From Rubrobacteraceae bacterium (GTDB lineage Bacteria > Actinomycetota > Rubrobacteria > Rubrobacterales > Rubrobacteraceae), in NCBI GenBank assembly GCA_049650095.1, contig JBARZM010000115.1, forward strand, positions 1 through 62,935: 62,935 nt of DNA, read 5' to 3'. This document shows positions 3,918-17,423 of this stretch, one piece after another. Numbering within the stretch: the first letter of the stretch is position 1; each line of letters begins with the position of its first letter. The notes below the pieces were generated by a model. That model made no database searches, was not told where the DNA came from, and saw only the letters and a list, made by a program, of their open reading frames with translations. The position numbers and the translations under genes are program-made.

Positions 3918-5422
3918 TAGAGGTCCTCCCTGGCTATGGCGTCTTCGGGGATGTCCTCGGTCTTCTCGCGGGTAAAACCCTTCTCGGAGTGGTAGACCCA
4001 GTTGAGACCCAGGCTGGTCGCCAGGTACTGGTCGTCGTGGCCGGACTCGATCTCGACCTGCTTGTAGCGGGGCAGGATCCAGAACCTCATCAACCCATAG
4101 TAAACGGCGAAGGCGATCGGGAACCCGAGGATGAACGCGATGTTGAGCCAGATGAGCGAGATGATCGCCGCTGTGAACCAGGCGATCACACCGGCCGGGT
4201 TTATCCCGTGCCAGTACCTAAACTGCCCGTCCGTCCGGTAGAGGTCCGGCACGTTGAGCCGACGCTTCCTGAAGACGTAGTAGTCGCAGACCATGATGCC
4301 GCCGATGGCCCCGATAAACCCACCGTAATAGCTGAGGAACGCGAAGAGGTTCTCCAGCAACGCCCACGGCGCAAGCGCCGTTCCGACAACCCCGGCGAGC
4401 ACCACCGCCCACGGATAGCTGAGACGGGGTGCTGCGGCGTTGACGAACGCGAGCGCCGCCGGGATGGCGTTCGCCGCCATGTTCGTCGACCACTGGGCGA
4501 GTATCACCATGATCAAAAGTACCACCAGAACAATACCGGTCCCCTGACCCTGAATAACCTCGACCGGGTTCCAGTTGCCGGTCACGATAAACGACACGGC
4601 CCCGATAAAAGCGATGAGCGCCTGCACCGTCGGAAGCGTAAGGAACTGGGCGACCAACACGTTGCGGTTGCGGCGGAAAAAGTTCCGCGTGGGCTCGGCC
4701 CGCACGAAGCGGGTTATGTTCGGAATGTCCACCGAAAGCGCCGACCAGACCGCCATGTTCGCGGCGAAGAGGGCTATGAGGGGGAGCGGCGCACCATCTC
4801 CGGCGAACGTCCAGATGTTGGTTCCTCCGGCCTCGGCGACGCCCGCGAGGTTGAAGTACATCCAGATCGCGATGGCGAGTATCGCCGGGGCGGCGATGGA
4901 GGCCAGCCGCTCGACGGCCCGCATACCGAGTGCGACGTTCGCCACCTGCACGATCATGAAGAGCGCGTACCACAGCGGCCAGAAGGCGAACCCGGTAAGG
5001 AACTCGACGATCCCGTTTATCGCGAGGGCTCCGAGGTAAGTCTGTATCCCGAACCAGGCCGCGGCGACGATTCCACGAGAAACCGCGGGAAGATGTGTAC
5101 CGATGGTCCCGAACGGCGCCCGCAGAAATACCGCGAACGACAGACCATGCTCGGTACCGATGTCCGCCGTAGCCGTCATGAGTATCGACAGGGTGGCGGT
5201 AGCGAAGAAGACGATTGCGAGGACCGTGGGGACGGTGTAGCCGGCCTCCACGCCGTTTGCACCGTACTGGAACGTCACGATGACGACGGCCAGCCCGATC
5301 CAGATGTAGTTGAAACCCCAGAACGTCAGCGCCCGCTGGTTCAGCCACGTCGGCAGGATAGACTCCTCGAGGAGACGGCCTCCTATAGCCGGTCTTTCTT
5401 CCCTTACTTCTGTCTGATCCAT
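3917..5422 (-). CDS. Second NCS1-family permease (purine/allantoin/cytosine type)
   Basis: 501-aa polytopic ORF with NCS1-like N-terminus (LNQRALTFWGFNYIWIGLAVVIVTFQYG). First gene of the NCS1-allC-NCS1-allB operon, downstream of an AT-rich promoter gap (5423-5568). Confidence 0.85.
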   Translation of the reverse strand: MDQTEVREERPAIGGRLLEESILPTWLNQRALTFWGFNYIWIGLAVVIVTFQYGANGVEAGYTVPTVLAIVFFATATLSILMTATADIGTEHGLSFAVFLRAPFGTIGTHLPAVSRGIVAAAWFGIQTYLGALAINGIVEFLTGFAFWPLWYALFMIVQVANVALGMRAVERLASIAAPAILAIAIWMYFNLAGVAEAGGTNIWTFAGDGAPLPLIALFAANMAVWSALSVDIPNITRFVRAEPTRNFFRRNRNVLVAQFLTLPTVQALIAFIGAVSFIVTGNWNPVEVIQGQGTGIVLVVLLIMVILAQWSTNMAANAIPAALAFVNAAAPRLSYPWAVVLAGVVGTALAPWALLENLFAFLSYYGGFIGAIGGIMVCDYYVFRKRRLNVPDLYRTDGQFRYWHGINPAGVIAWFTAAIISLIWLNIAFILGFPIAFAVYYGLMRFWILPRYKQVEIESGHDDQYLATSLGLNWVYHSEKGFTREKTEDIPEDAIAREDL

Positions 5423-5568
5423 GCCGGTCCTCCTTGTGCCGGATGCTTCTTTCCCTTTAGTGCCAGTATCCTAGTAACAAGAGGAACCCGAAATCTATGT
5501 ACGAGCGATTAAATATTTTTCGTTTCTTTTGTCTCTCTGTACAAATACAGCGCGGCCGGGTCCCTCTC

Positions 5569-5913
5569 TCAACTCCCCCGGTAGGTACTGTAAGACCAGG
5601 GTGAGGCGAGTAGCGGCACATGGTAGTGCGAATCGGGATTGGAGATGCCGAACCGGATCGGCACCTGGTCGAGGAACGGTGGGTCCCCATCTTCTCCGAA
5701 ATACTCCCCGACAGAGAAGACGATCTCGTACTCTCCCACCTCGAACTCGGCCTCCGTGAGGAGAGGCTCGTCGGTCCTACCGTCGTCGTTGGTGCGGACG
5801 GTCTTGATGGAGTGGCGCTCACCGGCCTCGAAGCGGGCGAGCTCTATCTCCATCCCGGCGGCGGGTTTGCCGTGGGCGGTGTCCAGGACGTGGGTAGTCA
5901 GGAAGCCGGACAT
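5569..5913 (-). CDS. uraH: 5-hydroxyisourate hydrolase (transthyretin-like)
   Basis: 114 aa. N-terminal [16 protein letters not shown] and C-terminal [18 protein letters not shown] are the HIU-hydrolase signature. Confidence 0.9.
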
Positions 5914-5917
5914 GAGG

Positions 5918-6793
5918 TTAGCCTTGCCTCTCTACCCAGCCCTCGATGTGGCCGTATGGGTCCTGGGTGGCGTGGTAAATTTCCCTGTCGTTCTCGATGC
6001 CGAAACGTTCCAGATCGAAGCCGATGTAGTGTACGTTGGGGAACGAGAACCAGATCCTCTCTACTTCGGGGAACCTTTTCAAGACCGCCTCGCCCATCCG
6101 GTACAGGGTGTTCTGCATCGAGGGGCTGTAATGGTCGGTGAAGGTCGTAAAGATCCGGTCCATCACCCCGCGCCAGGTCTCGTTAAAGTCTACGTTCTCC
6201 AAATCGTTAGTGTTGTACTCCCACTTGGAGGTAACGATGGTGGAGAGTATGCGGTCGCTCGTCTCCGGCAGGGTGGTGAACTGTTCGCGCAGAAAGCCTT
6301 CCCATCCGGAGTTTGTCGTCTTCAGTATGTGGACGTCGCCTATTCCGGCCTCCACTTTACGCCCGCCACCCTCGTCGCCCCAAACCTTTGTCCTGTGCTG
6401 GCCGCGACCCCGGACGAAGGAGTGCTCGTGGGGCTGGCCGTCAGCCTCCATCCGGCTCCACTGGGCTTGGTGGATCTCGACCCAGCAGCTCGTGACGGTC
6501 GGGCCGGCCTCTAGAAAGTGGTCCACCAGCGCCAGGCCGAAGTTTTCGATGGAGTCCGTGAGCTTATCCTTCGCCAGCGCGTTGACCGTGTTACGCATCG
6601 TGTCCGTCGCCAGGAGGCCGGTATTATCGCCTTTTGTGTGGGCGGCCTCGAAGTCGCCTTCCAGCGCGACCCGCACGTCGAGGTCCCAGACCTCGTGGCG
6701 CTCCGTATCGCGGTTTACCTTGAGCACACGGACCTCGGTCTTGCCGTAGTTGTTCTGTCCGAGGACGATCTTTGCGTCTGTGGTCTCCGTCAT
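5918..6793 (-). CDS. uox: Urate oxidase (cofactor-independent uricase)
   Basis: 291 aa with uricase-like N-terminus ([19 protein letters not shown]) and tandem T-fold-like organisation. Flanked by uraH and uraD. Confidence 0.85.
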
Positions 6794-7332
6794 TTTCTTT
6801 CTCCTTCCTCTATGGCTTCGCCCAACCTGTACCGTGCTATCTTGTTTATCTCTTCCAGGGCACGGTCTATCTCTTTCTCGGGGGAGTTCTCCAGCCGAAG
6901 CCCGGCGCCCTCCAGTATCGTTTCTTTTGTGTGTTCCCGGACGGCGAAGATCATGGGTATTCCGAACTTTTCTTTGTAGGCGTCGTTTAACTTCACGAAG
7001 GTCTCGTACTCCCCAGACGAGAGCCGATCGAGGCCCACTGAGGACTGCTCGCGGGTTGACTCCGGGGTGAGGGCGCCGGCCAGCGCCGCCTTCCCGGCGA
7101 GATCCGGGTGGGCTTTTATGAGCGCGAGCTGGTGCTCGTGTGAAGCCTCCCTAAGCACCCGCTCGAAAGCGCCGTGCATCCCGGCAAGACTTTTGAAAGG
7201 CCGCTGCTCGGAGGCTCCTTCAGATACCCAGGGGGAATGCTCGTAGAGAGGGCCGAACTTCTCTACGAACTCCTCCCGGCTCAGGTCGTTTACCTCGTCT
7301 AGTGTGATCTTCTGCGGCATCCTGCTCCTCAT
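6790..7332 (-). CDS. uraD: OHCU decarboxylase (2-oxo-4-hydroxy-4-carboxy-5-ureidoimidazoline decarboxylase)
   Basis: 180 aa with LIKAHPDLAG, ESTREQSSVGL and IFAVREHTK motifs of OHCU decarboxylases. Overlaps the uricase start by 4 nt. Confidence 0.85.
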   Translation of the reverse strand: MRSRMPQKITLDEVNDLSREEFVEKFGPLYEHSPWVSEGASEQRPFKSLAGMHGAFERVLREASHEHQLALIKAHPDLAGKAALAGALTPESTREQSSVGLDRLSSGEYETFVKLNDAYKEKFGIPMIFAVREHTKETILEGAGLRLENSPEKEIDRALEEINKIARYRLGEAIEEGERK

Positions 7333-7365
7333 CCAGTCCGGTTCTCGCGCCGGAAAAACTCTCGT

Positions 7366-9279
7366 TCAGATCCTCGCTCCAACAAAGGATTCCTCCACCA
7401 TATCCTGCAGGCGATAGTTGGCTATCTTTACCACCTCTACGATGGAGATCAGGGTCTCCTGCTCCCTACTGTGCTTCAATCGGGACTCGGCATCCTCCAA
7501 AAGCGTCTCTTTGGTGTGATCCCGGATGGCGGTCACCAGCGGGAACCCGAATTTCTCCCTGTAAGCTTCGTTCATCTGCTGGAACGCCTCGTCTTCCTCG
7601 GCTGAGAGACCCGTAAGGCCAACCGACCGGCGTTCCCAGACGGAGAGCGAAGAGAGACTCCCCCTGGCGGTCGCACTTTTGCTGAGTGGCGTGTAGGAGC
7701 GCAACAGTTCTACCTGGTGTTCTTCCGGGGCATCGTAGACGACGGTCTGGAAGGCGTGGCGCAGGTCGTGGATGCTGGAAAATGGGTGTTCGGAGTCGTA
7801 GGCATCCTCCGGCACCCAGCGGGTACCCTGGAACAGCGGGGCGAACTTCTCCGCGAACGCCTCGCGGCCCAGACGGTTTGCGTCCATGACGGTCAGCTTG
7901 TCCTCCACCCCGGCGATGTTCTCGCCGTAGTCGCCCACGTCCTGTTCCGTTTCTCCTCCCAAGACGTTGAAGAGGATGTTCAGGAGGATGGCGGCCACGG
8001 CGGCGGCGGTGATGCCGCTGTCGAACACGAGCCGCACGGCCTCGGGGAACTGTTCGTAGAACTCCGGGACCGTGGCGGGGATCACTCCGAGGGCCACGGC
8101 GACGGCAACGATAATGAGGTTCCGGTTGAGTGTGAGATCCACCTTAGAGAGCGTCTGGACGCCGGCCGCCGCGACGGAGCCGAACAGAACCAGGCCCGCG
8201 CCGCCCAGCACGGGCAACGGTATAGAGGCCACCAATCCGGCGACCTTGGGGAAGACGCCCATCAGGATTAGGATGAGCCCGGCAGCCGCCACCACGAAGC
8301 GGCTCTTGATGCCGGTAAAGCGCACGAGCCCGACGTTCTGGGCAAATGCGGAGAACGGGAAAGTGTTAAACACCGCGCCGAGGGCGGTGGAGATGCCATC
8401 CGCCCGCAGTCCTTTGGCTACGACATCGGAGTCTACGGGCTTTTCGGTGATCTCCCCAATAGCCAGGATGTCGGCGGTGGTTTCGGTCATGATGATCAGC
8501 ATAACGAGCGTCATGGATATTATCGGGACAAGGGCGAAGACCGGCGCCCCAAAGTTGAAGGGCAGCGTGATGCCGACCCACCCCGCGTCCCCGACCCTGG
8601 CGAAGTCGGCCATCGCGAATATCGCCGCGAAGGCGGTACCGATGACGAGCCCGAGCAGAATAGCGACCCGGCTCAGGAAACCGCCGAGAATGCCCCCGGT
8701 GAACCGGGTGATGAGCAAGACTATGAGCAGCGTAAGGAATGCCAGTCCTATATTGGACGGGCTACCAAAATCCGGGGCGTCCGGGACACCGCCGGCGGCC
8801 CATCGTATCGCCACCGGCATAAGCGAAACACCGATTATGGCTATGATGGTGCCGGTAACAACCGGTGGAAAAAAGCGCAACAGCTTGCCGAAAAACGGCG
8901 CGGCCAGCACGGTCAGGAGACCGGCAACGATGACAGATCCATAAATCCCCTGTATCCCGTACTCGCCGCCGATAATGATCATCGGCGTCACGGCGGCGAA
9001 CGAGGTGCCCTGTACTATTGGCAGCTTCGCCCCGAACTTCCAGACTCCGACGGCTTGTATCAGGGTAGCAACTCCGCACATAAAAAAGCTGGCGTTGATG
9101 ATGTAGACGATCTGATCCGGCGGCAGATCAAGGGCCGTCGCCACGATGAGCGGCACCGCGATGATCCCCGCATACATCGTCATCACATGCTGCAACCCGA
9201 AGGCCGCCATGCGTCCCGCCGGCAGTACCTCGTCTACGGGATGGGTTGTTTGCCCTTCCCGGCTACGCTCCTCCGACAT
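7366..9279 (-). CDS. NCS2 (xanthine/uric acid) permease fused to a C-terminal OHCU-decarboxylase-like domain
   Basis: The ORF-track ORF runs 7366..9330. The third ATG (9279) follows GAAGGAG at good spacing. The N-terminal ~470 aa is NCS2-like (FGLQHVMTMYAGIIAVPLIV, FAQNVGLV). The last ~175 aa (nt ~7369-7899) align residue-by-residue with the neighbouring uraD product. Confidence 0.85.
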   Translation of the reverse strand: MSEERSREGQTTHPVDEVLPAGRMAAFGLQHVMTMYAGIIAVPLIVATALDLPPDQIVYIINASFFMCGVATLIQAVGVWKFGAKLPIVQGTSFAAVTPMIIIGGEYGIQGIYGSVIVAGLLTVLAAPFFGKLLRFFPPVVTGTIIAIIGVSLMPVAIRWAAGGVPDAPDFGSPSNIGLAFLTLLIVLLITRFTGGILGGFLSRVAILLGLVIGTAFAAIFAMADFARVGDAGWVGITLPFNFGAPVFALVPIISMTLVMLIIMTETTADILAIGEITEKPVDSDVVAKGLRADGISTALGAVFNTFPFSAFAQNVGLVRFTGIKSRFVVAAAGLILILMGVFPKVAGLVASIPLPVLGGAGLVLFGSVAAAGVQTLSKVDLTLNRNLIIVAVAVALGVIPATVPEFYEQFPEAVRLVFDSGITAAAVAAILLNILFNVLGGETEQDVGDYGENIAGVEDKLTVMDANRLGREAFAEKFAPLFQGTRWVPEDAYDSEHPFSSIHDLRHAFQTVVYDAPEEHQVELLRSYTPLSKSATARGSLSSLSVWERRSVGLTGLSAEEDEAFQQMNEAYREKFGFPLVTAIRDHTKETLLEDAESRLKHSREQETLISIVEVVKIANYRLQDMVEESFVGARI

Positions 9280-9489
9280 ATTTTCTCCTTCCCCAGACAT
9301 GAGGCCTGATCTTCTACCTCTGCCGTCCATCTTAGTTACGCCGGGATCAGGATATCTATGTACCGGTGATTAAAGTTTTCTCAAGCCTTTTGTGTTTTTG
9401 GATAAAGTTATGCTGTAAGCAGAAGCGAGTCTTCGAGACTTACTAGAGGATAAAGGAGTAAAGGAAATAATATGCTGAGCGTTCTACCT

Positions 9490-10398
9490 TTATCCAACTA
9501 CCTCAACAGCCTGCATGAAGGCCACACCTCTATGGTTTTCGATAAGTTTGATAATAGGAGTAGCCGAAAGAGTTTGAATGCAAGCGTGGTGAACTGTAAG
9601 TACCGCGTCCTGAAAATCGTTGTTTTCCTCAAGCCGCGCGACCTTGATTCCCAGCTCTGAGGCGCGCTCTAACGAAATATGCCTGTCGTGAGTGAGCGTT
9701 AGTTCATGGCTGCCCAGTTCTTCCACGATCTGTGCAGCCTTGTCATCTGCACCGTAATCTTCCGCGAACATGCCCGAGATGAGATTATCTTTGACCATCT
9801 GCGAAGACCAATCTATAGCCTTCTGCGCCTCACCGATCAAGGTAGGATTGTACTTGGCAATAATAGGCTGCCATACAGGTATCCTTGTTTGGTCTTCCCG
9901 GATTTCGTCGGCCGCTCGATTGAACTCTTCAATGATGCCGTGTGCCGGCAAGCCGAAGATTTGGGGATCGACAGGACCTAGACTAGACTGCGCGCCCATA
10001 ACGACTTCTTTGCACGCCAAAGCGACCATCGTCCCAGCCGACATGGCAAGTTGCGGTACGATAGCGCGCATATCGTTACCAAACATCTTGCGCAGATAGT
10101 CTATAAGAGACTCAGTGGCAGCGGTTGCCCCTCCAGGTGTATGCAGCAGTAAGTCTAGTCCTTTGGAGCGATCGAGTTCGTGGATGGTGGCCATAAACCC
10201 GTTCTTGTCGTTGTCATTTAGTTCGAAACCTGTGACGCCTTGATTAAGTAGATCACTTTTCTGAAGCCAAGCTGAATAGTAGACGATGACATTGCGGCCT
10301 GTGAGTTCCTGAAGTTGCTGAAGATACTTACGCCTTGTTAGGTCGTAAACGCTTCCAGCAGTTCTAACTTCGTCAAGAAGCTGATTCCAGTTGGGCAT
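9490..10398 (-). CDS. SDH-family Clp-fold serine protease (ClpP/SppA-like, cytoplasmic)
   Basis: 302 aa. GLDLLLHTPGGATAATESLIDYLR and QLAMSAGTMVALACKEVVMG motifs are typical of the serine dehydrogenase proteinase (PF01972-like) family. No signal peptide or TM segment. Confidence 0.75.
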   Translation of the reverse strand: MPNWNQLLDEVRTAGSVYDLTRRKYLQQLQELTGRNVIVYYSAWLQKSDLLNQGVTGFELNDNDKNGFMATIHELDRSKGLDLLLHTPGGATAATESLIDYLRKMFGNDMRAIVPQLAMSAGTMVALACKEVVMGAQSSLGPVDPQIFGLPAHGIIEEFNRAADEIREDQTRIPVWQPIIAKYNPTLIGEAQKAIDWSSQMVKDNLISGMFAEDYGADDKAAQIVEELGSHELTLTHDRHISLERASELGIKVARLEENNDFQDAVLTVHHACIQTLSATPIIKLIENHRGVAFMQAVEVVG

Positions 10399-10643
10399 TA
10401 AGCGGTGGGTGCCGCCTTGGTGCTGTTAGACAACCGTGTTATGTATCGAACCTTTTGGTTGTCCGCAGACTTTCTGACGATCTCTTGGCGCAAGGCGACA
10501 TCGCGCTTTTCTTGGGTATCTAAGTCCAGCTCTTCAAATATGCTGACCACTTCGGGTTCAGAGAATTTCGGCCTTCTTGTCTGCATTTGCTCCACGTCCG
10601 TTCCCCTTTCGTCCCTATCCCCAGCCACACCCTTGATATTCAA
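10398..10643 (-). CDS. Small hypothetical protein, translationally coupled to the protease
   Basis: 81 aa from TTG 10643, or 62 aa from ATG 10586. Its stop TAA shares 1 nt with the protease ATG (TAATG). Same AT-rich composition. No recognisable domain. Confidence 0.45.
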   Translation of the reverse strand: MNIKGVAGDRDERGTDVEQMQTRRPKFSEPEVVSIFEELDLDTQEKRDVALRQEIVRKSADNQKVRYITRLSNSTKAAPTA

Positions 10644-10788
10644 GTGTCAACTATCTACTCTCTGTTCCTATTATAGGCTGATTTGTCTTGACATGGGTTA
10701 AGCTTTATTAATATTTGTTGGCAGATTATGTAGGTCTTCCGCTCAATTTGCTCATGCCACTCCAAAGTCCACCTTACCTTTTACACCC

Positions 10789-11064
10789 TCAGAACCTGTC
10801 GACGTCCGCCTCGGTCTCTACTTTTACCTCAACGGCTTTGGCCCCGGCTTCAAGGGCGGCCTCTGTGACCTTCATCGTCGCCTGCAGCACCTCATCACGA
10901 CCGCCGGAGAGCATCATGGTCTCTGGGCCGGCCTCGCGGGCCAGCCCAGAGGCACCGGCAGTCTCTTTCGCAGCCCCGATCTGCTCCCGTGGCGGCTTCT
11001 CGGCCCGGTCCGAAGTCACGACCTTCAGCTCCGCGCTGACCGGCGCCCGCTCGTAGCCGGGCAT
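10789..11064 (-). CDS. Hypothetical 91-aa protein coupled to the xanthine dehydrogenase large subunit
   Basis: Its ATG overlaps the stop of the Mo-subunit gene (TAATG). Host-like GC. Ala/Glu-rich with no recognisable motif. Confidence 0.5.
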   Translation of the reverse strand: MPGYERAPVSAELKVVTSDRAEKPPREQIGAAKETAGASGLAREAGPETMMLSGGRDEVLQATMKVTEAALEAGAKAVEVKVETEADVDRF

Positions 11065-13442
11065 TAGTACTCCTTCCTCTCATCCAGACGACCGATCTCC
11101 GCGTATCCGGCGCTGCCGGGCTGGGGCGGCTCATCGGGCGGCTTCTCGGAGATGCCCGCGATCTGCTCGGGCTTCACCGGGACCCGCGTAAGCTCTCTTC
11201 CGGTGGCGTCGCGCAGCGCGGCGACGATAGCCGGGGTAGAGGCGATCGTCGGAGGTTCGCCGACGCCTTTGAGTCCGTAGGGGGCTTCGGGGTCAGCCAG
11301 TTCCAGGATTTCCATCTTGACCGACGGCATGTCGAGGATGGTGGGTATGAGGTAGTCGGTAAAAGACGCGTTCTGGACCTTGCCTTCTTTTATCTGGATC
11401 TCCTCCATCAATGCGAGGCCGAGTCCCTGGGCGATGCCGCCCTCGATCTGGCCCTCTAAAGCCTGCGGGTTCATGACCTTCCCCACGTCCTGGGCCGTGG
11501 CGATTTCCACCACCCGCACGAGCCCGAGCTCCGTATCCACCTCCACCACGGCCCGATGGGCGGCGAAGGCGAACTGTAGATGGGCCTCGCCCTGCCCTTT
11601 GTCGTCCAGCGGGTGCGTCTCTTTGTGGTGGAACTCGACCGTTTCCTCGATTTCCTCGCCATCCAGAAGATCGGCCAGCGCGACCACCGTCCGGCCGTCC
11701 GAGGCGACACCTCCCCCTTCTATTGAGAGGCCGGCTGGATCTTCCCCAAACTCGTCCTCGACGAGCGCGAACACCCGTTCACGGACCGCCTCGCAGGCCA
11801 TCTTCACCGCGCCGCCAGTCATGTAAGTCTGCCGGGAGGCGGAGGTGGAACCTGCTGAGCCAACGCGGGTGTCCGCCGGAAGCACGGCGACCTTCTCGAC
11901 GCCGAGCTCGGTACGGGCGATCTGGGCCTGCACCATTACGCCACCCTGCCCCACTTCCGCCGCTGCGGTGTGAACCGCCACGAGCGGCTCGCCATCGCTG
12001 ATCGAGAGCCTGACCCTGGCGGTGGAGTAATCGTCGAAGCCCGCCGAGAAACCGATGTTCTTGAAACCCACCGCATACCCGACGCCCCGCGCCACGCCCT
12101 CGCCGTGCGTCACGTTCGAGACACCACCCGGCAACTCGCGCAGGTCCCGGCCCACCAGCTCTTTCTCCTCCGGAAGAGGCATGGCCTTTACGCGCTCCAG
12201 GATCTCCGCTACCGGGGCCGGGTACGGCACTTCCTGGCCGAACGGGAACCGGTCGCCGGGCTTTATGGCGTTCTTCACGCGAAGCTCGACCGGGTCCATG
12301 TCGAGCTCCCGCGCCAGCTTGTCCATCTGGGACTCGTGGGCGAAACAGGCCTGGACGGCGCCGAAGCCGCGCATCGCGCCGCAGGGTGGGTTGTTCGTGT
12401 AGAGCATGTGGCTCACGATCTCCGCGTTCGGGACGTCGTAAGGACCACAGGCGAAGGTCGCCGCGTTCAGGCACACGGCGTTTGAGCTGGAGGCGTAGGC
12501 GCCGCCGTCAAAAACGAGCCGCGCCTTGACGTAGACGAGTTTTCCGTCCTTCGTGGCGCCGTGTTCGTAGCCCATCTTCGCCGGGTGACGGTGGACGTGG
12601 CCGAAGAAGGATTCCTCGCGGTTGTAGGACATCTTTACGGGGCGTTCGGTTTTCAGGGCGAGCATGCAGGCGTGGATCTGCATGGAGAGGTCTTCGCGCC
12701 CGCCAAAGGCCCCGCCGACGCCCGAAAGCTCCAGCCGGACCTGTTCCGGCCCAAGCCCGAGGCTCTCGGCGATCTGGTCCTGGTCTATGTGTAGCCACTG
12801 GGTCGAGATGTAGAGGTCAACCCCGCCCTCACCGTCCGGTATCGCGAGCCCGGACTCCGGTCCGAGGAAAGCCTGATCCTGCATCCCGATCTCGTACTCT
12901 CCTGTTACCGCAACATCCGCCGCGGCGCTGCCCGCGTCTCCGTGCTCTATCCGGATCTGCCGGAGCACGTTGCCGGAGAGGTGCAGTTGCGGCGCGTCCT
13001 CCCGCATCGCCGCTTCGGCGTCCGCGAGTGTATCGAAGACTTCGTACTCCACAGAGATTCTCTCCAGCGCCCTCCGGGCCGTCTCCGGGTGATCCGCGGC
13101 TACGATAGCAACCGGCTCACCCTGATAGCGCACCTTTTCCCAGGCGAGCACGGGCTGGTCGGGGATCTCCATCCCATAGACTTTGCGCCCCGGTACGTCC
13201 TCGTGCGTCAGGACGGCGTACACCCCGGGCATGTCTTCGGCCTCCGAAGTATCTATGGACCGGATCTCCGCGTGCGGGTGTGGGCTGCGGAGCGTTGCGC
13301 CCCACAACCTTCCGTCCATATAAAGGTCCGAAGAGTACTCGAACTCTCCCTTGACCTTCGGGGCGCCGTCCGGTCGAACCGTACTCTCGCCGACCCTGCC
13401 GGGTATCGTGGGCGTCTTGGGACTTTCGCGGGTCGCGGGCAT
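11064..13442 (-). CDS. Xanthine dehydrogenase, molybdopterin-binding large subunit
   Basis: The track ORF extends to 13793, but that part overlaps the Fe-S subunit gene. Internal ATG 13442 gives 792 aa starting MPATRES. Aldehyde oxidase/XDH a/b-hammerhead and MoCo-binding regions are present (GVGGAFGGRED, NPPCGAMRGFG, GVGEPP). Confidence 0.9.
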   Translation of the reverse strand: MPATRESPKTPTIPGRVGESTVRPDGAPKVKGEFEYSSDLYMDGRLWGATLRSPHPHAEIRSIDTSEAEDMPGVYAVLTHEDVPGRKVYGMEIPDQPVLAWEKVRYQGEPVAIVAADHPETARRALERISVEYEVFDTLADAEAAMREDAPQLHLSGNVLRQIRIEHGDAGSAAADVAVTGEYEIGMQDQAFLGPESGLAIPDGEGGVDLYISTQWLHIDQDQIAESLGLGPEQVRLELSGVGGAFGGREDLSMQIHACMLALKTERPVKMSYNREESFFGHVHRHPAKMGYEHGATKDGKLVYVKARLVFDGGAYASSSNAVCLNAATFACGPYDVPNAEIVSHMLYTNNPPCGAMRGFGAVQACFAHESQMDKLARELDMDPVELRVKNAIKPGDRFPFGQEVPYPAPVAEILERVKAMPLPEEKELVGRDLRELPGGVSNVTHGEGVARGVGYAVGFKNIGFSAGFDDYSTARVRLSISDGEPLVAVHTAAAEVGQGGVMVQAQIARTELGVEKVAVLPADTRVGSAGSTSASRQTYMTGGAVKMACEAVRERVFALVEDEFGEDPAGLSIEGGGVASDGRTVVALADLLDGEEIEETVEFHHKETHPLDDKGQGEAHLQFAFAAHRAVVEVDTELGLVRVVEIATAQDVGKVMNPQALEGQIEGGIAQGLGLALMEEIQIKEGKVQNASFTDYLIPTILDMPSVKMEILELADPEAPYGLKGVGEPPTIASTPAIVAALRDATGRELTRVPVKPEQIAGISEKPPDEPPQPGSAGYAEIGRLDERKEY

Positions 13443-13456
13443 CGCCGCCCGGCCCG

Positions 13457-13924
13457 TCACGCGCCCATCTTCCCGGCGGCGAGGTGAACGGCGTCCAGGA
13501 TCTTCTCGTAACCCGTGCAACGGCAGAGGTTGCCGGCCAACGCCTCCCTTATCTCCGCGTCCGTCGGCGCCGGGATACGTTCCAGCAAATCGTGGGCGGC
13601 TACGACGAGCCCCGGAGTGCAGAACCCGCACTGTACAGCCCCCGCTTCGACAAAGGCCTCCTGCACGGGATGCAGCCCGTCGTTCTCCGCGATGCCCTCG
13701 ACCGTAACGACCTCTCGCCCCTCCGCCTGTCCCGCGAGCACCAGACAAGAACACACGAGCGTACCGTCCAGGTACACCGAGCAGGAGCCGCACTCACCCT
13801 GCTCGCAGGCGTTCTTGGAGCCCGGCAGACTGAGCCGCTCGCGCAGCACGTACAGCAGGCTCTCTCCTTCCCACACGTCGTCCACCTCGCGCGCCTCGCC
13901 GTTCACGTCGAACTCCAGTCGCAT
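13457..13924 (-). CDS. Xanthine dehydrogenase [2Fe-2S] small subunit
   Basis: 155 aa with CEQGECGSCSV and CGFCTPG...CRCTGY cysteine motifs of the (2Fe-2S)-binding subunit. Confidence 0.9.
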   Translation of the reverse strand: MRLEFDVNGEAREVDDVWEGESLLYVLRERLSLPGSKNACEQGECGSCSVYLDGTLVCSCLVLAGQAEGREVVTVEGIAENDGLHPVQEAFVEAGAVQCGFCTPGLVVAAHDLLERIPAPTDAEIREALAGNLCRCTGYEKILDAVHLAAGKMGA

Positions 13925-14818
13925 CTACCCACCTTCCCGATACTCATTCCAGGCCCAGCGTAAGGTACGCCGGGCCAACACGCCAACCGCGTGCCGCCGG
14001 TACTCTCCACTACCCCGGAGATCGTCTATGGGCCGGGCCGCCGCCGCTACCAGTTCTCCGAAACGTCCTAGCGCCGCCTCGTCCAACGCCTCGCGCGAAC
14101 CCCACAACCTGTATTCTTCCAGCAAGCTCCGGATAAACTCTTCGGCCTCGTAAGCCCGGATGGGCGTCGGCCCGGCCGACCCTATACACGCGCACACCTC
14201 CCCCTTCTCCGGATGGAGGGCGAGACCGAGGGAGCAGACGGCTATGACCATCGCGTTGCGCGTTCCGATCTTGGCGTACTGCTGCGGACCGTCCGCCTCC
14301 GGGATGTAGAAGGCGGAGATTACCTCTTCAGGCTTCGTCGCGGTCTTTTTCGGCGCCTTTATAAACTCGGAAACCGGCACGCGGCGCGTCCCTCCGACAG
14401 ATGCGAGTTCCACCTCCGCGCCGGAGACGTAAAGCGGCGGCAGGGCGTCGCCGGCGGGAGAGGCGGTGCCGAGGTTCCCCCCGATGGTGCCGCGGTTTCG
14501 GATCTGGGGAGATCCCACCGTCCGGGAGGCGATGGCGAGCCCCGGCAGCCGGTCCGCCATCTCCCGTATGACCTGTGTATACGTGACCCCGGCCCCGATC
14601 CGCAATCGACCGTTCTCCGTCCCCCACTCCTGTAGCTCCGGCACGCGCGTCAGGTCGAGGATCGTTTCGGGGCGGCGGCGGTCGAAGTTCAACTCCACCA
14701 TCAGATCCGTGCCCCCGGAGATCGGCCTGGCTTCCGGATGCGCGGCTTTCGCTTCCAGGGCTTCTTGCCAGGTTGTGGGTTGCAGGAACTCTATCCTTCC
14801 CCCTTTCACGTGAAACAT
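13925..14818 (-). CDS. Xanthine dehydrogenase FAD-binding subunit
   Basis: ATG 14818 (MFHVKGG) is chosen over the longer track ORF. Carries a CO dehydrogenase flavoprotein-type FAD domain (ISGGTDLMVELN, RNRGTIGGNL). Abuts the Fe-S subunit start. Confidence 0.85.
   Translation of the reverse strand: MFHVKGGRIEFLQPTTWQEALEAKAAHPEARPISGGTDLMVELNFDRRRPETILDLTRVPELQEWGTENGRLRIGAGVTYTQVIREMADRLPGLAIASRTVGSPQIRNRGTIGGNLGTASPAGDALPPLYVSGAEVELASVGGTRRVPVSEFIKAPKKTATKPEEVISAFYIPEADGPQQYAKIGTRNAMVIAVCSLGLALHPEKGEVCACIGSAGPTPIRAYEAEEFIRSLLEEYRLWGSREALDEAALGRFGELVAAAARPIDDLRGSGEYRRHAVGVLARRTLRWAWNEYREGG
14802..14817. promoter_or_regulatory. parS-like site (CCTTTCACGTGAAACA, 14/16 to consensus TGTTTCACGTGAAACA)
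   Basis: Direct sequence match. Overlaps the start codon of the XDH FAD subunit, 13 kb from parAB. Confidence 0.4.
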
Positions 14819-14990
14819 CGCTCCAGTGAGAAGGTCCGGCCAGGTGATAGCCCGCGGGCGCGCCTTCTCTCTCCCGGTTTGTCGGACGCTATCGCGCCCC
14901 CGTACCCAGCATACTATCCCTACGGCAATCTGGCGGTCAACGTATGCCTGTACAAACCTTGCCACACTCTAGTGCGAATGTCGCCGTGTT

Positions 14991-17423
14991 CTAACCCACC
15001 ACGACGTTCACCAGCCTTCCCGGAACGTAGATGCTCTTGCGGACCTGCTTTCCTTCGAGGTGCGGCAGGATCTTCCCGCTGGCGAGCGCCAACTCTTTCG
15101 CATCGTCTTCGGAGATGTCCGCCGGGGCTTCGATGCGGTCGCGGACTTTGCCGTTGACCTGGATTATGAGCGTTATTTCTTCTTCTGCGATGAGCGATTC
15201 GTCGTAGCCGGGCCACGCCTGCTCGTGGACGGAGTAAGGCTCTCCCAGGGCGGCCCACATCTCTTCGGCGTGATGCGGGGCGAGTGGGGCGAGCAGCAGG
15301 GCGAAGGTGCGGAGCGCGTCGCCCCACGCCGCTTCTTCCGCCTCGTCGCGCACGGCGAGCAGGTAGTTGGTGTGCTCCATGAGCCCCGCGATGGCCGTAT
15401 TGAACCGGAACGCCGCGAGGTCTTCGGTCACCTTTTTCGTCGTGCGGGCCGTGCGGCGGGGAAGCTCGGCGGGGTCGGCGTCCGCGCCGGTGGCGTCGCC
15501 GTCCCCGGTTAGGGTGAGCGCCCGGCGCAGGAAACGGGCCACGCCCTCAATGCCGCGTCCGTCCCAGGGGCCGCCCTGGTCCCACGGCCCGATAAACATC
15601 AGGAAGCATCGCAGCGCGTCGGAGCCGTAGCGCTCTACGAGATCCTGCGGGTTCACGACGTTGCCCCGACTCTTGCTCATCTTCTCCGCGTCCTCGCCCA
15701 GGATGATGCCCTGGTTGAAGAGCTTCAACATCGGCTCGTCGAAGTCCACGAGCCCGAGGTCGCGCATTACCTTCGTGAAGAAGCGCGTGTACAGGAGGTG
15801 CATCACCGCGTGCTCGATGCCGCCGGTATATTGGTCCACGGGCAACCACTTCGCCCCGCGCTCCGGATCAAATGGCCCCTCGTCGTAGTGCGGGCTCAGA
15901 TACCGGTACTGGTACCACGACGAATCCATGAACGTGTCCATCGTGTCGGTCTCGCGCTCCGCCGGGCCCCCGCAGATGGGACAGGTCGTGTTGCGGAAAC
16001 CTTCGTGCAGCTTGAGCGGGGACTCGCCGGTCGGGGTGAACTCGGCGTCCTCGGGGAGCAGGACGGGCAGGTCTTCCTCCGGGACGGGGACGGGGCCGTG
16101 TTCGGGGCAGTAGATTATGGGGATCGGTGTCCCCCAGTACCGCTGGCGGCTGATGAGCCAGTCCCGCAGCCGGTACGTCACCGTGGACTCGCCGGCGTTC
16201 TTCTCTTCGAGCGCCTCGGTCATGCGCTTTTTGGCTTCCTCTATCTCCAGGCCGTCGAGGAAGCCGGAGTTTATGGCCGGGCCTTCGCCGACATAGGCCT
16301 CGCCGTCAAAGTCTTCGGGGGGCTGTACGGTTCGGATTATTGGCAGGTCGTATTTGGCGGCGAAGTCCCAGTCGCGCTGGTCCTGGCCGGGGACCGCCAT
16401 GATCGCGCCGGTCCCGTAACCCATGAGCACGTAATCAGCTATGTAGATCGGGATCCTCTGCTCGTTCGCCGGGTTGATCGCGTACGCCCCGGTGAACACG
16501 CCGGTCTTCTCGCGGGTGACGTCCGTCCGGTCGATCTCGGTCATGCGACCGGCCTTCTCGACGTACTCGCCCACCGCTTCCGCTTGCTCCGGAGTCGTGA
16601 TCTCCCCGACTGCCGGATGCTCGGGGCTCATCACGAAGAACGTCGCCCCGAAGAGCGTGTCCGGGCGGGTCGTGAATACTTCCAGGGGGCCGTAACCGGG
16701 GACTTCGAAGACTATTTCGGCGCCTTCGGAGCGCCCGATCCAATTGGTCTGAAGCGTCTTTACGCGCTCGGGCCAGTCTATCTTCGAGAAGTCCAGAAGC
16801 TCTTCGGCGTAGTCCGTGATCCTGAAGAGCCACTGCGCGAGGTTCTTTTTTACGACCGGCGTCCCGCACCGCTCACAGACCCGATCCGGGCCGACTACCT
16901 GCTCCCGGGCGAGCGTCGTATTGTCTTTCGGACACCAGTCCACCGGCGCTTCTTTGCGGTACGCCAGTCCTTTTTCGAGGAACTTGAGGAAGAACCACTG
17001 GTTCCAGCGGTAGTATTCCGGCGTGCAGGTGACTACTTCCGAGGAGCGGTCGAACATCGCGCCCATCTGCCCCAGTTGCCCGCGCATGTTCTCGATATTC
17101 GACATGGTCCACTTGTATGGGTGTATGCCCCGGTTGATGGCCGCGTTCTCCGCCGGAAGCCCGAAAGCGTCGAAGCCTATCGGAAAAAAGACCCGGTACC
17201 CGCTCATCCGCATAAACCGCGCATGAGTGTCCGAGGGCGTCATCGCGTACCAGTGCCCGACGTGCAGATCCCCACTCGGGTACGGCAGCATCGTGAGCGC
17301 GTAGTGTTTCGGCTTATCGGGGTCCTCGTCGGTCTTGTAGAGACCAGTCTCAGACCACCGCTCTTGCCAGCGATGCTCCAGGGCCGTGGGATCATAGGTT
17401 TTCTTACGTTGCGTCTCGCTCAC
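14991..17423 (-). CDS. leuS: Leucyl-tRNA synthetase
   Basis: GTG 17423 follows GAAGGAG; the track ORF carries an implausible 80-aa N-terminal extension. HIGH-type (PYPSGDLHVGH) and KMSKS motifs are present. 810 aa. Confidence 0.93.
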   Translation of the reverse strand: MSETQRKKTYDPTALEHRWQERWSETGLYKTDEDPDKPKHYALTMLPYPSGDLHVGHWYAMTPSDTHARFMRMSGYRVFFPIGFDAFGLPAENAAINRGIHPYKWTMSNIENMRGQLGQMGAMFDRSSEVVTCTPEYYRWNQWFFLKFLEKGLAYRKEAPVDWCPKDNTTLAREQVVGPDRVCERCGTPVVKKNLAQWLFRITDYAEELLDFSKIDWPERVKTLQTNWIGRSEGAEIVFEVPGYGPLEVFTTRPDTLFGATFFVMSPEHPAVGEITTPEQAEAVGEYVEKAGRMTEIDRTDVTREKTGVFTGAYAINPANEQRIPIYIADYVLMGYGTGAIMAVPGQDQRDWDFAAKYDLPIIRTVQPPEDFDGEAYVGEGPAINSGFLDGLEIEEAKKRMTEALEEKNAGESTVTYRLRDWLISRQRYWGTPIPIIYCPEHGPVPVPEEDLPVLLPEDAEFTPTGESPLKLHEGFRNTTCPICGGPAERETDTMDTFMDSSWYQYRYLSPHYDEGPFDPERGAKWLPVDQYTGGIEHAVMHLLYTRFFTKVMRDLGLVDFDEPMLKLFNQGIILGEDAEKMSKSRGNVVNPQDLVERYGSDALRCFLMFIGPWDQGGPWDGRGIEGVARFLRRALTLTGDGDATGADADPAELPRRTARTTKKVTEDLAAFRFNTAIAGLMEHTNYLLAVRDEAEEAAWGDALRTFALLLAPLAPHHAEEMWAALGEPYSVHEQAWPGYDESLIAEEEITLIIQVNGKVRDRIEAPADISEDDAKELALASGKILPHLEGKQVRKSIYVPGRLVNVVVG

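What the first reader, a model, noticed from the sequence alone, without database searches (positions are those of the whole stretch)
7366..9279. Uric acid/xanthine permease fused to a degenerate OHCU-decarboxylase domain (catalytic-motif His replaced by Tyr)
- **Seen:** the C-terminal ~175 aa of the NCS2 permease (nt ~7369-7899) align colinearly with the stand-alone OHCU decarboxylase encoded 34 nt downstream.
- **Seen:** EEHQVELLRSYTPLSKS...SVWERRSVGL...VTAIRDHTKETLL in the fused copy matches HEHQLALIKAHPDLAGK...STREQSSVGL...IFAVREHTKETIL in the stand-alone copy.
- **Seen:** the Glu and Arg positions are kept. The His of the A-H-P-x-L motif is Tyr (codon 7693-7695).
- **Established:** that His is reported as important for catalysis in characterised OHCU decarboxylases.
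- **Inference:** the domain may be a cytoplasmic ligand-sensing or enzyme-docking module on the transporter rather than an enzyme. It could gate uptake by a downstream pathway intermediate or form a transport metabolon.
Basis: partly seen in the sequence, partly recalled or inferred. Interest (0 to 1): 0.6.

Follow-up and report, generated by a model that had tools for sequence, protein, structure and literature searches.

The report
Purine permease with dead-enzyme tail domain
A xanthine/uric-acid uptake protein carries, on a flexible tether inside the cell, a well-conserved copy of the last enzyme of urate breakdown whose key catalytic histidine is always replaced. It is probably a sensor or scaffold rather than an enzyme, and databases name the whole protein as that enzyme.

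Summary
One ORF (window 7366..9279, minus strand, 637 aa) joins a PbuX-type NCS2 permease to a complete OHCU-decarboxylase (UraD) fold. A disordered linker of about 20 residues connects them. A genuine stand-alone uraD follows 33 nt downstream.

- **Catalytic residues:** the proton-transfer His (zebrafish His67) is Tyr546. Two other enzyme-invariant residues are also changed: Glu to Gln501 and Gln to Arg567.
- **Not a local accident:** none of 150 permease-fused cluster representatives keeps His (146 Tyr, 4 Phe). All 112 His-position-scorable unfused representatives without a permease part that form the enzyme set have His.
- **One origin:** the fused domains form a single clade (SH-aLRT 100). 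It occurs in Rubrobacteraceae and at least two other actinobacterial families, with hundreds of metagenomic clusters.
- **Under selection:** dN/dS is about 0.08-0.3, and the domain evolves more slowly than the neighbouring real enzyme.
- **Never alone:** all 25 genomes checked that carry the fusion also carry a separate UraD homologue. It is type 1 in Rubrobacteraceae and type 2 in the f7/f51 genomes whose sequences I read.

My best reading is a non-catalytic pseudoenzyme domain, most likely binding a metabolite and regulating uptake. This function is inferred, not shown. I found no paper on it in the searchable library. The scan had noted the same architecture once before, in another genome (e1-3003285).

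The parts
7366..9279 (-). Fused gene: PbuX-type NCS2 permease plus a C-terminal UraD-like domain (637 aa, stop included). An in-frame ATG at 9330 lies upstream but lacks an SD, and homologues do not have the extension.
8062..9207 (-). Permease core (PF00860). It scores 526 bits on TIGR03173 pbuX (cut-off 414). The NAT signature QNVGLVRFTG is present.
7900..7956 (-). Acidic, poorly conserved linker of about 19 residues between the last TM helix and the soluble domain. Predicted disordered (pLDDT below 50).
   Evidence: (residues 442-460 of the 637-aa model)
7405..7878 (-). UraD / OHCU-decarboxylase-fold domain (PF09349, full length).
   Evidence: AF2 pLDDT 87, pTM 0.84; Foldseek 2o70 TM 0.83/0.93, prob 1.00
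7693..7695 (-). Tyr546 codon, at the position of the catalytic proton-transfer His (zebrafish His67).
7828..7830 (-). Gln501 codon (LFQG). This position is Glu in 112 of 112 enzyme representatives and Gln in 150 of 150 fused representatives.
7630..7635 (-). Glu566-Arg567, replacing the enzyme-invariant Glu-Gln pair (zebrafish Glu87-Gln88). The Gln is lost here; most other fused lineages have Asp-Gln.
7411..7413 (-). Arg640 codon, equivalent to zebrafish Arg161. It is retained in every fused copy that covers the position (147 of 147).
6790..7332 (-). Stand-alone uraD with intact AHPDLAG, EQ and Arg. A second ATG at 7320 has a better SD (GAGGAG).
5569..6793 (-). Uricase (5918..6793) and HIU hydrolase (5569..5913), directly downstream on the same strand.

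Best explanation
The gene encodes a xanthine/urate:H+ symporter of the PbuX subfamily. Its cytoplasmic C-terminus carries, on a flexible tether of about 20 residues, a folded paralogue of OHCU decarboxylase that no longer performs the canonical reaction. In other words, it is a pseudoenzyme domain.

**Shown**
- The fold is intact.
- The stereospecific proton-donor His is replaced by an aromatic residue (Tyr, sometimes Phe) in the whole clade.
- The enzyme-invariant Glu of the FEHSPW motif is always Gln.
- Part of the ligand pocket persists: Ser563, the acidic residue 566, Arg640 and the FGFP motif.
- The domain is under strong purifying selection.
- A separate UraD is present in every genome checked that has the fusion.

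**Inferred**
- The retained pocket still binds a planar purine or ureide of the pathway, such as urate/xanthine, OHCU or allantoin. The Tyr/Phe would stack on the ring.
- Occupancy would be relayed to the transporter to throttle uptake when downstream intermediates accumulate.
- It may also help to hold the transporter dimer together.
- This would be functionally analogous to the C-terminal STAS domain of the SulP/SLC26 transporters, which share the same 7+7 fold (fold relationship from general knowledge, not tested here).
For: **Architecture and fold**
- Searches give the domain architecture, the confident fold and the disordered tether.

**Loss of the catalytic His**
- 17 of 17 fused Rubrobacteraceae copies have Tyr. 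32 of 33 unfused copies have His.
- In the 1.84-billion-protein library, all 13 top-150 hits that truly contain a permease part have Tyr or Phe, and 112 hits without a permease part have His.
- Among 150 fused representatives at 90% clustering: Tyr 146, Phe 4, His 0; Glu31 to Gln 150 of 150; Ser 149 of 150; Arg 147 of 147.
- A review states that the conserved His mediates stereospecific proton transfer, and that a conserved Gln destabilises the carboxylate (PMC13751858).
- Phe cannot donate a proton, so the aromatic ring rather than the hydroxyl is what is conserved.

**One origin**
- One clade with SH-aLRT 100 holds 46 of 49 Tyr/Phe-type rows and every true fusion.

**Selection**
- dN/dS for the closest pair is 0.039 for the permease, 0.076 for the fused domain and 0.186 for the stand-alone uraD. 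Other pairs give 0.1-0.37.

**Redundancy with a real enzyme**
- 25 of 25 fusion-bearing genomes also carry a separate UraD homologue: 15 in f1, 9 in f7, and G252.
- The His was read directly in the Rubrobacteraceae copies fetched and in G201, G120, G188 and G252.
Against: - No activity, binding or transport measurement exists.
- Tyr can act as a general acid in other enzymes, so residual or altered catalysis is not excluded in the Tyr-bearing majority.
- The pocket residues were assigned by alignment to solved structures, not by inspecting coordinates.
- The full-length AF2 model gives no confident placement of the domain against the permease (pTM 0.61), so no relay path is visible.
- dS is near or beyond saturation for all but the closest pair.
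Confidence: 0.6

Rival explanations
1. The fused domain is still an OHCU decarboxylase, or catalyses a closely related reaction, using Tyr as the proton donor. It would give a membrane-anchored second copy close to where urate enters, forming a true transport-metabolism fusion.
For: - The domain scores above the curated cut-off of the equivalog-domain model TIGR03164 (129 versus 96 bits).
- Ser, the acidic residue and Arg161-equivalent are retained.
- The strong purifying selection is also what an enzyme would show.
Against: - His is absent in 150 of 150 fused representatives and present in all 112 enzyme representatives.
- Phe replaces Tyr in several lineages.
- The enzyme-invariant Glu31 is always Gln, and the Gln88-equivalent is Arg in this protein.
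- A separate UraD is present in 25 of 25 genomes with the fusion, which would make a second enzyme redundant.
Confidence: 0.17
2. The domain is a docking site. It recruits the stand-alone UraD by pseudo-homodimerisation, and perhaps also uricase and HIUase, to the transporter. This would form a membrane-associated uricolytic metabolon that limits release of unstable HIU and OHCU.
For: - The fusion and uraD are adjacent and on the same strand in every locus examined.
- OHCU decarboxylase domains associate as dimers in crystals and in allantoin synthase (PMC2834698; PMC13751858).
- One metagenomic fragment (P0045) has the Tyr-type domain in frame with a type-2 UraD.
Against: The partner UraD belongs to two distant subfamilies in different lineages: AHPDLAG type in Rubrobacteraceae and AHPRIGE type in f7 and G252. 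The fused domain stays the same type throughout, which is hard to reconcile with a conserved paralogue-pairing interface.
Confidence: 0.13
3. The domain is purely structural. It would homodimerise under the NCS2 dimer and stabilise it, or aid folding and insertion, with no ligand sensing.
For: - NCS2 transporters work as dimers (general knowledge), and UraD folds dimerise.
- There is a fused-clade-specific set of conserved residues outside the catalytic positions, for example Arg524, Glu541, the RE/DHTKET stretch and the KIAN helix.
Against: - It does not explain why exactly the two residues that are invariant in the enzymes (His, Glu31) are the ones replaced in concert, while Ser, the acidic residue and Arg of the pocket stay.
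- Most NCS2 permeases, including those of many Rubrobacteraceae, do without such a domain.
Confidence: 0.08
4. The fusion is an artefact (frameshift or misassembly) or a decaying relic of a duplicated uraD.
For: Remnants of the 3' end of the fused domain, with stop codons and no permease, lie upstream of uraD in G040 and G053. The gene can therefore be lost.
Against: - The same open frame occurs in dozens of independent genomes and hundreds of metagenomic clusters.
- dN/dS is well below 1, and dN is lower than that of the real enzyme.
Confidence: 0.02

Closest known systems
OHCU decarboxylase / UraD (PF09349; zebrafish Urad PDB 2o70; Klebsiella HpxQ 3o7h-k; Arabidopsis 2q37)
   Same: - Same all-alpha fold (TM 0.83/0.93 to 2o70).
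- Full-length HMM match.
- Ser, Glu87 and Arg161 equivalents are retained.
- It belongs to the same pathway gene cluster.
   Different: - His67 is Tyr, Glu23 is Gln and Gln88 is Arg.
- It is tethered to a membrane transporter.
- It forms its own clade, separate from the enzymes.
Other natural UraD fusions: PucL (UraD-uricase), allantoin synthase (UraD-HIUase, PDB 5z5m), PuuE-UraD
   Same: A UraD domain is fused to another protein of purine catabolism. P0035 and G005 in this data set are UraD-uricase fusions.
   Different: - Those fusions keep the catalytic His (RAHPDLA in P0035; AHPDLAG in G005) and join two enzymes.
- Here the partner is a transporter and the His is gone.
PbuX / XanQ / UacT-type bacterial NCS2 (NAT) xanthine-uric acid permeases
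   Same: - 526 bits on TIGR03173.
- NAT signature motif present, and a multi-helix membrane core in the AF2 model.
- It is the only strong PF00860 hit in the genome.
   Different: Characterised members end shortly after the last TM helix (general knowledge). This one has a 180-residue folded cytoplasmic domain.
STAS domains of SulP/SLC26 transporters, and SulP-carbonic anhydrase fusions
   Same: - A C-terminal cytoplasmic soluble domain on a transporter of the same 7+7 inverted-repeat, dimeric, elevator-type fold superfamily.
- STAS domains are proposed to have regulatory or partner-binding roles.
- This comparison rests on general knowledge and was not tested here.
   Different: - The fold is unrelated, and no STAS appears among the Foldseek hits.
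- This is an analogy of architecture only, not membership.
Catalytically dead paralogues used as regulators (for example HisZ with HisG, or the trypanosome AdoMetDC prozyme)
   Same: A paralogue of a pathway enzyme that has lost catalytic residues yet is kept under selection next to the active enzyme.
   Different: Those act by binding the active enzyme. Here the dead paralogue is fused to the pathway's uptake transporter, and binding to the enzyme is doubtful.

Membership tests
NCS2/NAT permease, PbuX (xanthine permease) subfamily | Match to PF00860 and to TIGR03173 above the curated cut-offs | tested here: met
   PF00860 E 4e-102. TIGR03173 scores 526 bits against a cut-off of 414.
NCS2/NAT permease, PbuX (xanthine permease) subfamily | NAT signature motif [Q/E/P]-N-x-G-x-x-x-x-T-[R/K/G] (motif definition from memory) | tested here: met
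   QNVGLVRFTG is present in the translation. The N, G and T positions are invariant in 17 fused homologues.
NCS2/NAT permease, PbuX (xanthine permease) subfamily | Transport of xanthine and/or urate | not testable with these tools
   Only context supports it: the gene sits between xanthine dehydrogenase and uraD-uricase-HIUase.
OHCU decarboxylase (UraD, EC 4.1.1.97) | PF09349 / TIGR03164 match and the all-alpha UraD fold | tested here: met
OHCU decarboxylase (UraD, EC 4.1.1.97) | Catalytic proton-transfer His (zebrafish His67, A-H-P-x-L motif) | tested here: not met
   Tyr546 here. None of 150 fused representatives has His, against all 112 enzyme representatives. The role of the His is taken from PMC13751858.
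OHCU decarboxylase (UraD, EC 4.1.1.97) | Conserved Glu-Gln pair (zebrafish Glu87-Gln88) | tested here: not met
   Glu566 is kept but the Gln is Arg567. Among fused representatives the pair is DQ in 123, ER in 19, DR in 5, DH in 2 and EQ in 1.
OHCU decarboxylase (UraD, EC 4.1.1.97) | Invariant Glu of the F-E-H-S-P-W motif (zebrafish Glu23) | tested here: not met
   Gln501 here, and Gln in 150 of 150 fused representatives. It is Glu in 112 of 112 enzyme representatives.
OHCU decarboxylase (UraD, EC 4.1.1.97) | Conserved C-terminal Arg (zebrafish Arg161) | tested here: met
   Arg640 here. Arg in 147 of 147 fused representatives that cover the position.
OHCU decarboxylase (UraD, EC 4.1.1.97) | Decarboxylation of OHCU to (S)-allantoin | not testable with these tools
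   Needs an enzyme assay.
Pseudoenzyme domain | Homologous fold, loss of catalytic residues, and retention under purifying selection | tested here: met
   Fold. Residue loss. dN/dS 0.08-0.37.
Pseudoenzyme domain | Demonstrated lack of the ancestral activity | not testable with these tools
   Needs an enzyme assay.
STAS-type transporter regulatory domain | STAS (SpoIIAA-like) fold | tested here: not met
   All Foldseek hits with E up to 0.001 are OHCU decarboxylases, and there is no STAS Pfam hit. This is an analogy only.

The most novel reading that the evidence does not exclude
A dead copy of the pathway's last enzyme has been wired onto the pathway's entry transporter as an allosteric sensor. 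Cytoplasmic OHCU, allantoin or urate would bind the former active site, now with an aromatic in place of His, and directly gate an elevator-type NCS2 permease. This would be a one-polypeptide end-to-start feedback loop, and the first regulatory soluble domain described for the NCS2/NAT family.
Probability: 0.3. Interest if true: 0.75.

Novelty: new variant of a known kind. Interest (0 to 1): 0.55.

Why it matters
- **Annotation:** hundreds of database entries for this architecture are named either 'OHCU decarboxylase' or 'uric acid transporter'. The first name is probably wrong for the protein as a whole, because the domain passes the NCBIfam equivalog-domain cut-off while lacking the catalytic His.
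- **Biology:** this would be a clean natural example of an enzyme paralogue recruited as a non-catalytic module on a transporter. For the NCS2/NAT family, no cytoplasmic regulatory domain turned up in the literature I could search.
- **Testability:** the hypothesis is easy to test, because the domain is small, soluble and predicted with confidence. Homologues also exist in Gordonia and Rhodococcus, which are more tractable than Rubrobacter.
- **Mechanism:** the concerted His-to-Tyr and Glu-to-Gln switch points to two positions worth probing in studies of the cofactor-free decarboxylase itself.

Tried and rejected
- **Complex prediction:** I submitted the fused domain (A2) against the stand-alone UraD (A4). 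The tool returned 'no answer' (score 0.00, mark 0.32). This is neither support nor evidence against binding.
- **Full-length AF2 model:** both parts fold and the linker is disordered. A pTM of 0.61 gives no usable information on docking of the domain to the permease.
- **Primary literature:** attempts to read the structural papers failed (Cendron 2007; French and Ealick 2010, PMC2975168) because they are not held. The catalytic roles are therefore taken from the 2026 review. My recalled numbering His67/Glu87/Arg161 was checked against the 2o70 sequence.
- **Searches for prior descriptions of the fusion:** none found. This covers only the open-access library.
- **Rfam scan of 5000-15500:** no purine riboswitch or other known RNA.
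- **Long open frames rejected as fusions:** the 648- and 652-aa frames holding a His-type UraD in G010 and G013, and the 993-aa frame in G438. Their upstream parts are Arg-rich out-of-frame readings of high-GC DNA or lack a permease match.
- **P0178:** my phmmer screen flagged it as permease-bearing, but Pfam shows only PF09349.
- **Unpublished genomes:** G045 contributes one His-type stand-alone row, and G044 contributes partial matches. No conclusion depends on them.
Full report
**What is there**

The minus-strand ORF 7366..9330 is open. The ATG at 9279 is preceded by GGAGA. It gives 637 aa, the length of the closest homologues (632-638 aa), so I take it as the start. Residue numbers below count from the ATG at 9330; subtract 17 for the 637-aa form.

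- Pfam finds PF00860 (Xan_ur_permease, residues 42-423, E 4e-102).
- Pfam also finds a full-length PF09349 (OHCU_decarbox, residues 485-642, E 7e-35).
- NCBIfam places the permease in the PbuX xanthine-permease subfamily (TIGR03173, 526 bits, cut-off 414). The tail scores above the cut-off of the UraD equivalog-domain model (TIGR03164, 129 versus 96 bits).
- The tail is 43% identical over 171 residues to the product of the next gene, 6790..7332 (E 2e-43). That gene is a canonical stand-alone UraD.
- The surrounding genes, all on the minus strand, are xanthine dehydrogenase, a low-GC island with an SDH-type protease, the fused permease, uraD, uricase, HIU hydrolase, an NCS1 permease, an M20 amidohydrolase, a second NCS1 permease and an amidohydrolase.
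- The fused gene is the only strong PF00860 match in this 3.1-Mb assembly.

**Fold and tether**

- An AF2 model of the tail alone is confident (pLDDT 87, pTM 0.84).
- It superposes on zebrafish OHCU decarboxylase 2o70 with TM 0.83/0.93. All 14 significant Foldseek hits are OHCU decarboxylases or allantoin synthase.
- In the full-length model, both parts fold. Residues 442-460 of the 637-aa form, between the last TM helix and the domain, have pLDDT below 50. The alignment is poorly conserved there.
- This indicates a flexible tether of about 20 residues.
- NCS2 C-termini are cytoplasmic (established topology of the family), so the domain sits in the cytoplasm, where the uricolytic enzymes act.

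**Catalytic residues**

Counting along the HMMER alignment to 2o70 gives these equivalences:

| Zebrafish residue | Motif | Stand-alone UraD here | Fused domain here |
|---|---|---|---|
| His67 | C-H-P-D-L | His75 | Tyr546 |
| Glu87-Gln88 | E-Q | Glu95-Gln96 | Glu566-Arg567 |
| Arg161 | | Arg169 | Arg640 |
| Glu23 | F-E-H-S-P-W | Glu31 | Gln501 |

A 2026 review states that the conserved His mediates the stereospecific proton transfer that yields (S)-allantoin. It also states that a conserved Gln destabilises the scissile carboxylate (PMC13751858).

It understates the change, because two more enzyme-invariant residues are also replaced.

**This is a clade-wide rule, not a local mutation**

*Rubrobacteria sample.* The genome is a member of Rubrobacteraceae: the nearest named homologues are Rubrobacter radiotolerans and R. 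aplysinae. I searched 101 genomes of the class, counting the window's own.
- 15 of them carry 17 permease-UraD fusions, of two subtypes. One subtype has a roughly 25-residue insertion after the motif.
- All 17 fusions have Tyr.
- 32 of 33 unfused copies have His. The exception, G075, sits next to a frameshifted uricase.

*Phylum sample of 401 genomes.*
- Fusions also appear in family f7 and in G252 of family f51.
- A search of 17 f7 genomes found fusions in 9.
- Named relatives come from Solirubrobacterales, Propionibacteriaceae, Rhodococcus and Gordonia.

*Global 1.84-billion-protein representative library.*
- Every top-150 hit that truly includes a permease part has Tyr or Phe.
- All 112 His-bearing hits lack a permease part.

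*150 permease-fused cluster representatives (90% identity).*

| Position | Residue counts |
|---|---|
| His67 equivalent | Tyr 146, Phe 4, His 0 |
| Glu23 equivalent | Gln 150 of 150 |
| Acidic-Gln pair | DQ 123, ER 19, DR 5, DH 2, EQ 1 |
| Pocket Ser | 149 of 150 |
| Arg161 equivalent | 147 of 147 |

At E up to 1e-20 there are 496 such clusters for the f7 type alone.

*Phylogeny.* A maximum-likelihood tree of 197 UraD domains puts 46 of the 49 Tyr/Phe-type rows, and all true fusions, in one clade with SH-aLRT 100. This implies a single fusion event with the substitutions at its base.

*The decisive pair of positions.* Comparing the two sets column by column, His67 and Glu23 are the only positions that are 100% invariant in the enzymes and replaced in 97-100% of fused domains.

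**The domain is functional**

For the closest orthologue pair (G000/G017):

| Region | dN/dS | dN |
|---|---|---|
| Permease part | 0.039 | |
| Fused domain | 0.076 | 0.061 |
| Neighbouring stand-alone uraD | 0.186 | 0.134 |

More distant pairs give 0.1-0.37 for the domain, although dS is saturating there. The domain is therefore more constrained than the real enzyme. 'Degenerate' is the wrong word for it.

The gene can nevertheless be lost. G040 and G053 keep only a 3' remnant of the domain, with a stop codon in G040 and no permease, directly upstream of uraD.

**It never replaces the enzyme**

- All 25 genomes in which I found the fusion also have a separate UraD homologue: 15 in Rubrobacteraceae, 9 in f7, and G252. 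It is usually immediately downstream or within 1.5 kb.
- The partner is type 1 (AHPDLAG) in Rubrobacteraceae.
- In the f7 genomes I read (G201, G120, G188) and in G252, the partner is the distant type 2 (AHPRIGE).
- The earlier scan note e1-3003285 describes the same arrangement in yet another genome.
- A redundant second enzyme is an unlikely reading of this pattern.
- A docking role based on paralogue pairing is also weakened, because the partner changes family while the fused domain does not.

**Mechanism I commit to**

I read this as a non-catalytic UraD-fold domain, at about 0.6 probability. Within that, the most likely sub-mechanism is a metabolite-binding module. It would report cytoplasmic levels of a pathway purine or ureide to the transporter and may also help the NCS2 dimer.

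The reasoning is as follows:
- The residues removed are those for chemistry (the proton donor and its invariant acidic neighbour).
- The residues that shape the pocket are retained: Ser, the acidic residue, Arg and the FGFP motif.
- The interchange of Tyr with Phe says the aromatic ring is what matters. That fits stacking on a planar ligand.
- From memory, and not checked here, UraD pockets bind purine analogues: guanine in the zebrafish structures and allopurinol in Klebsiella.

Ligand identity, any gating and the absence of activity are all inferences.

**Rivals**

| Reading | Probability |
|---|---|
| Residual or altered catalysis with Tyr as the acid | about 0.17 |
| Enzyme docking / metabolon | about 0.13 |
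| Purely structural dimerisation | about 0.08 |
| Artefact or relic | about 0.02, effectively refuted |

**Comparison with what is known**

- By HMM and fold it is a member of the UraD superfamily. It fails three residue-level tests for the enzyme, so I do not file it as an OHCU decarboxylase.
- Known UraD fusions (with uricase, HIUase or PuuE) join two enzymes and keep the His.
- The architectural analogue is the STAS domain of SulP/SLC26 transporters. The fold is unrelated.
- I found no paper describing the permease-UraD fusion in the searchable library. The sequences are in public databases under automatic names only.
- I therefore rate it a new variant of a known kind: a pseudoenzyme domain on a transporter.

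**Caveats**

- The complex prediction gave no verdict.
- The primary structural papers could not be read.
- Genome samples are samples, so 'not found' applies only to those searched.
- Two unpublished genomes (G044, G045) contribute only incidental rows.

Noticed in passing
window 9340-10785: A lower-GC stretch (about 0.46-0.53, against about 0.60 in the flanks) lies between the xanthine dehydrogenase genes and the fused permease. It encodes a ClpP-like SDH-type serine protease (PF01972, E 8.5e-26). It looks like an insertion that splits the purine cluster.
   Followed up: partly
L041 (G040:C1, about 622942-623130) and L042 (G053:C2, about 100615-100750): Directly upstream of the stand-alone uraD lie 60-90-residue remnants of the 3' end of the fused domain (64-79% identical). 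The G040 remnant has a stop codon, and no permease part is present in the 7-8 kb fetched. This marks deletion of the fused gene in these lineages.
   Followed up: partly
L024 (G075:C13): This is the only unfused UraD in the Rubrobacteraceae sample with Tyr instead of His (NYPDLAG, and EH instead of EQ). It is followed by a uricase that drifts in and out of frame. It is either a decaying cluster or indel errors in the assembly.
   Followed up: no
L059, L060, L061 (family f7) and L062 (G252): In these other actinobacterial lineages the active enzyme next to the fusion is the type-2 UraD (AHPRIGE), not type 1. In f7 an amidohydrolase gene (PF01979) sits between the fusion and uraD.
   Followed up: partly
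P0045 (metagenomic fragment, 287 aa): A Tyr-type fused-clade domain continues in the same frame into a type-2 UraD (ARHPRIGD). It is either a read-through gene call or a natural permease / dead UraD / live UraD triple fusion.
   Followed up: no
window 7320-7332: The stand-alone uraD has two in-frame ATGs. The second (7320) has the better Shine-Dalgarno (GAGGAG, 5 nt upstream), so the annotated N-terminus may be 4 residues too long.
   Followed up: no
G006 and G057 (L033/L044, L034/L047): Two Rubrobacteraceae genomes carry both subtypes of the fusion, one with and one without the roughly 25-residue insertion after the Tyr motif. The subtypes are therefore paralogous lineages, not allelic variants.
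   Followed up: partly
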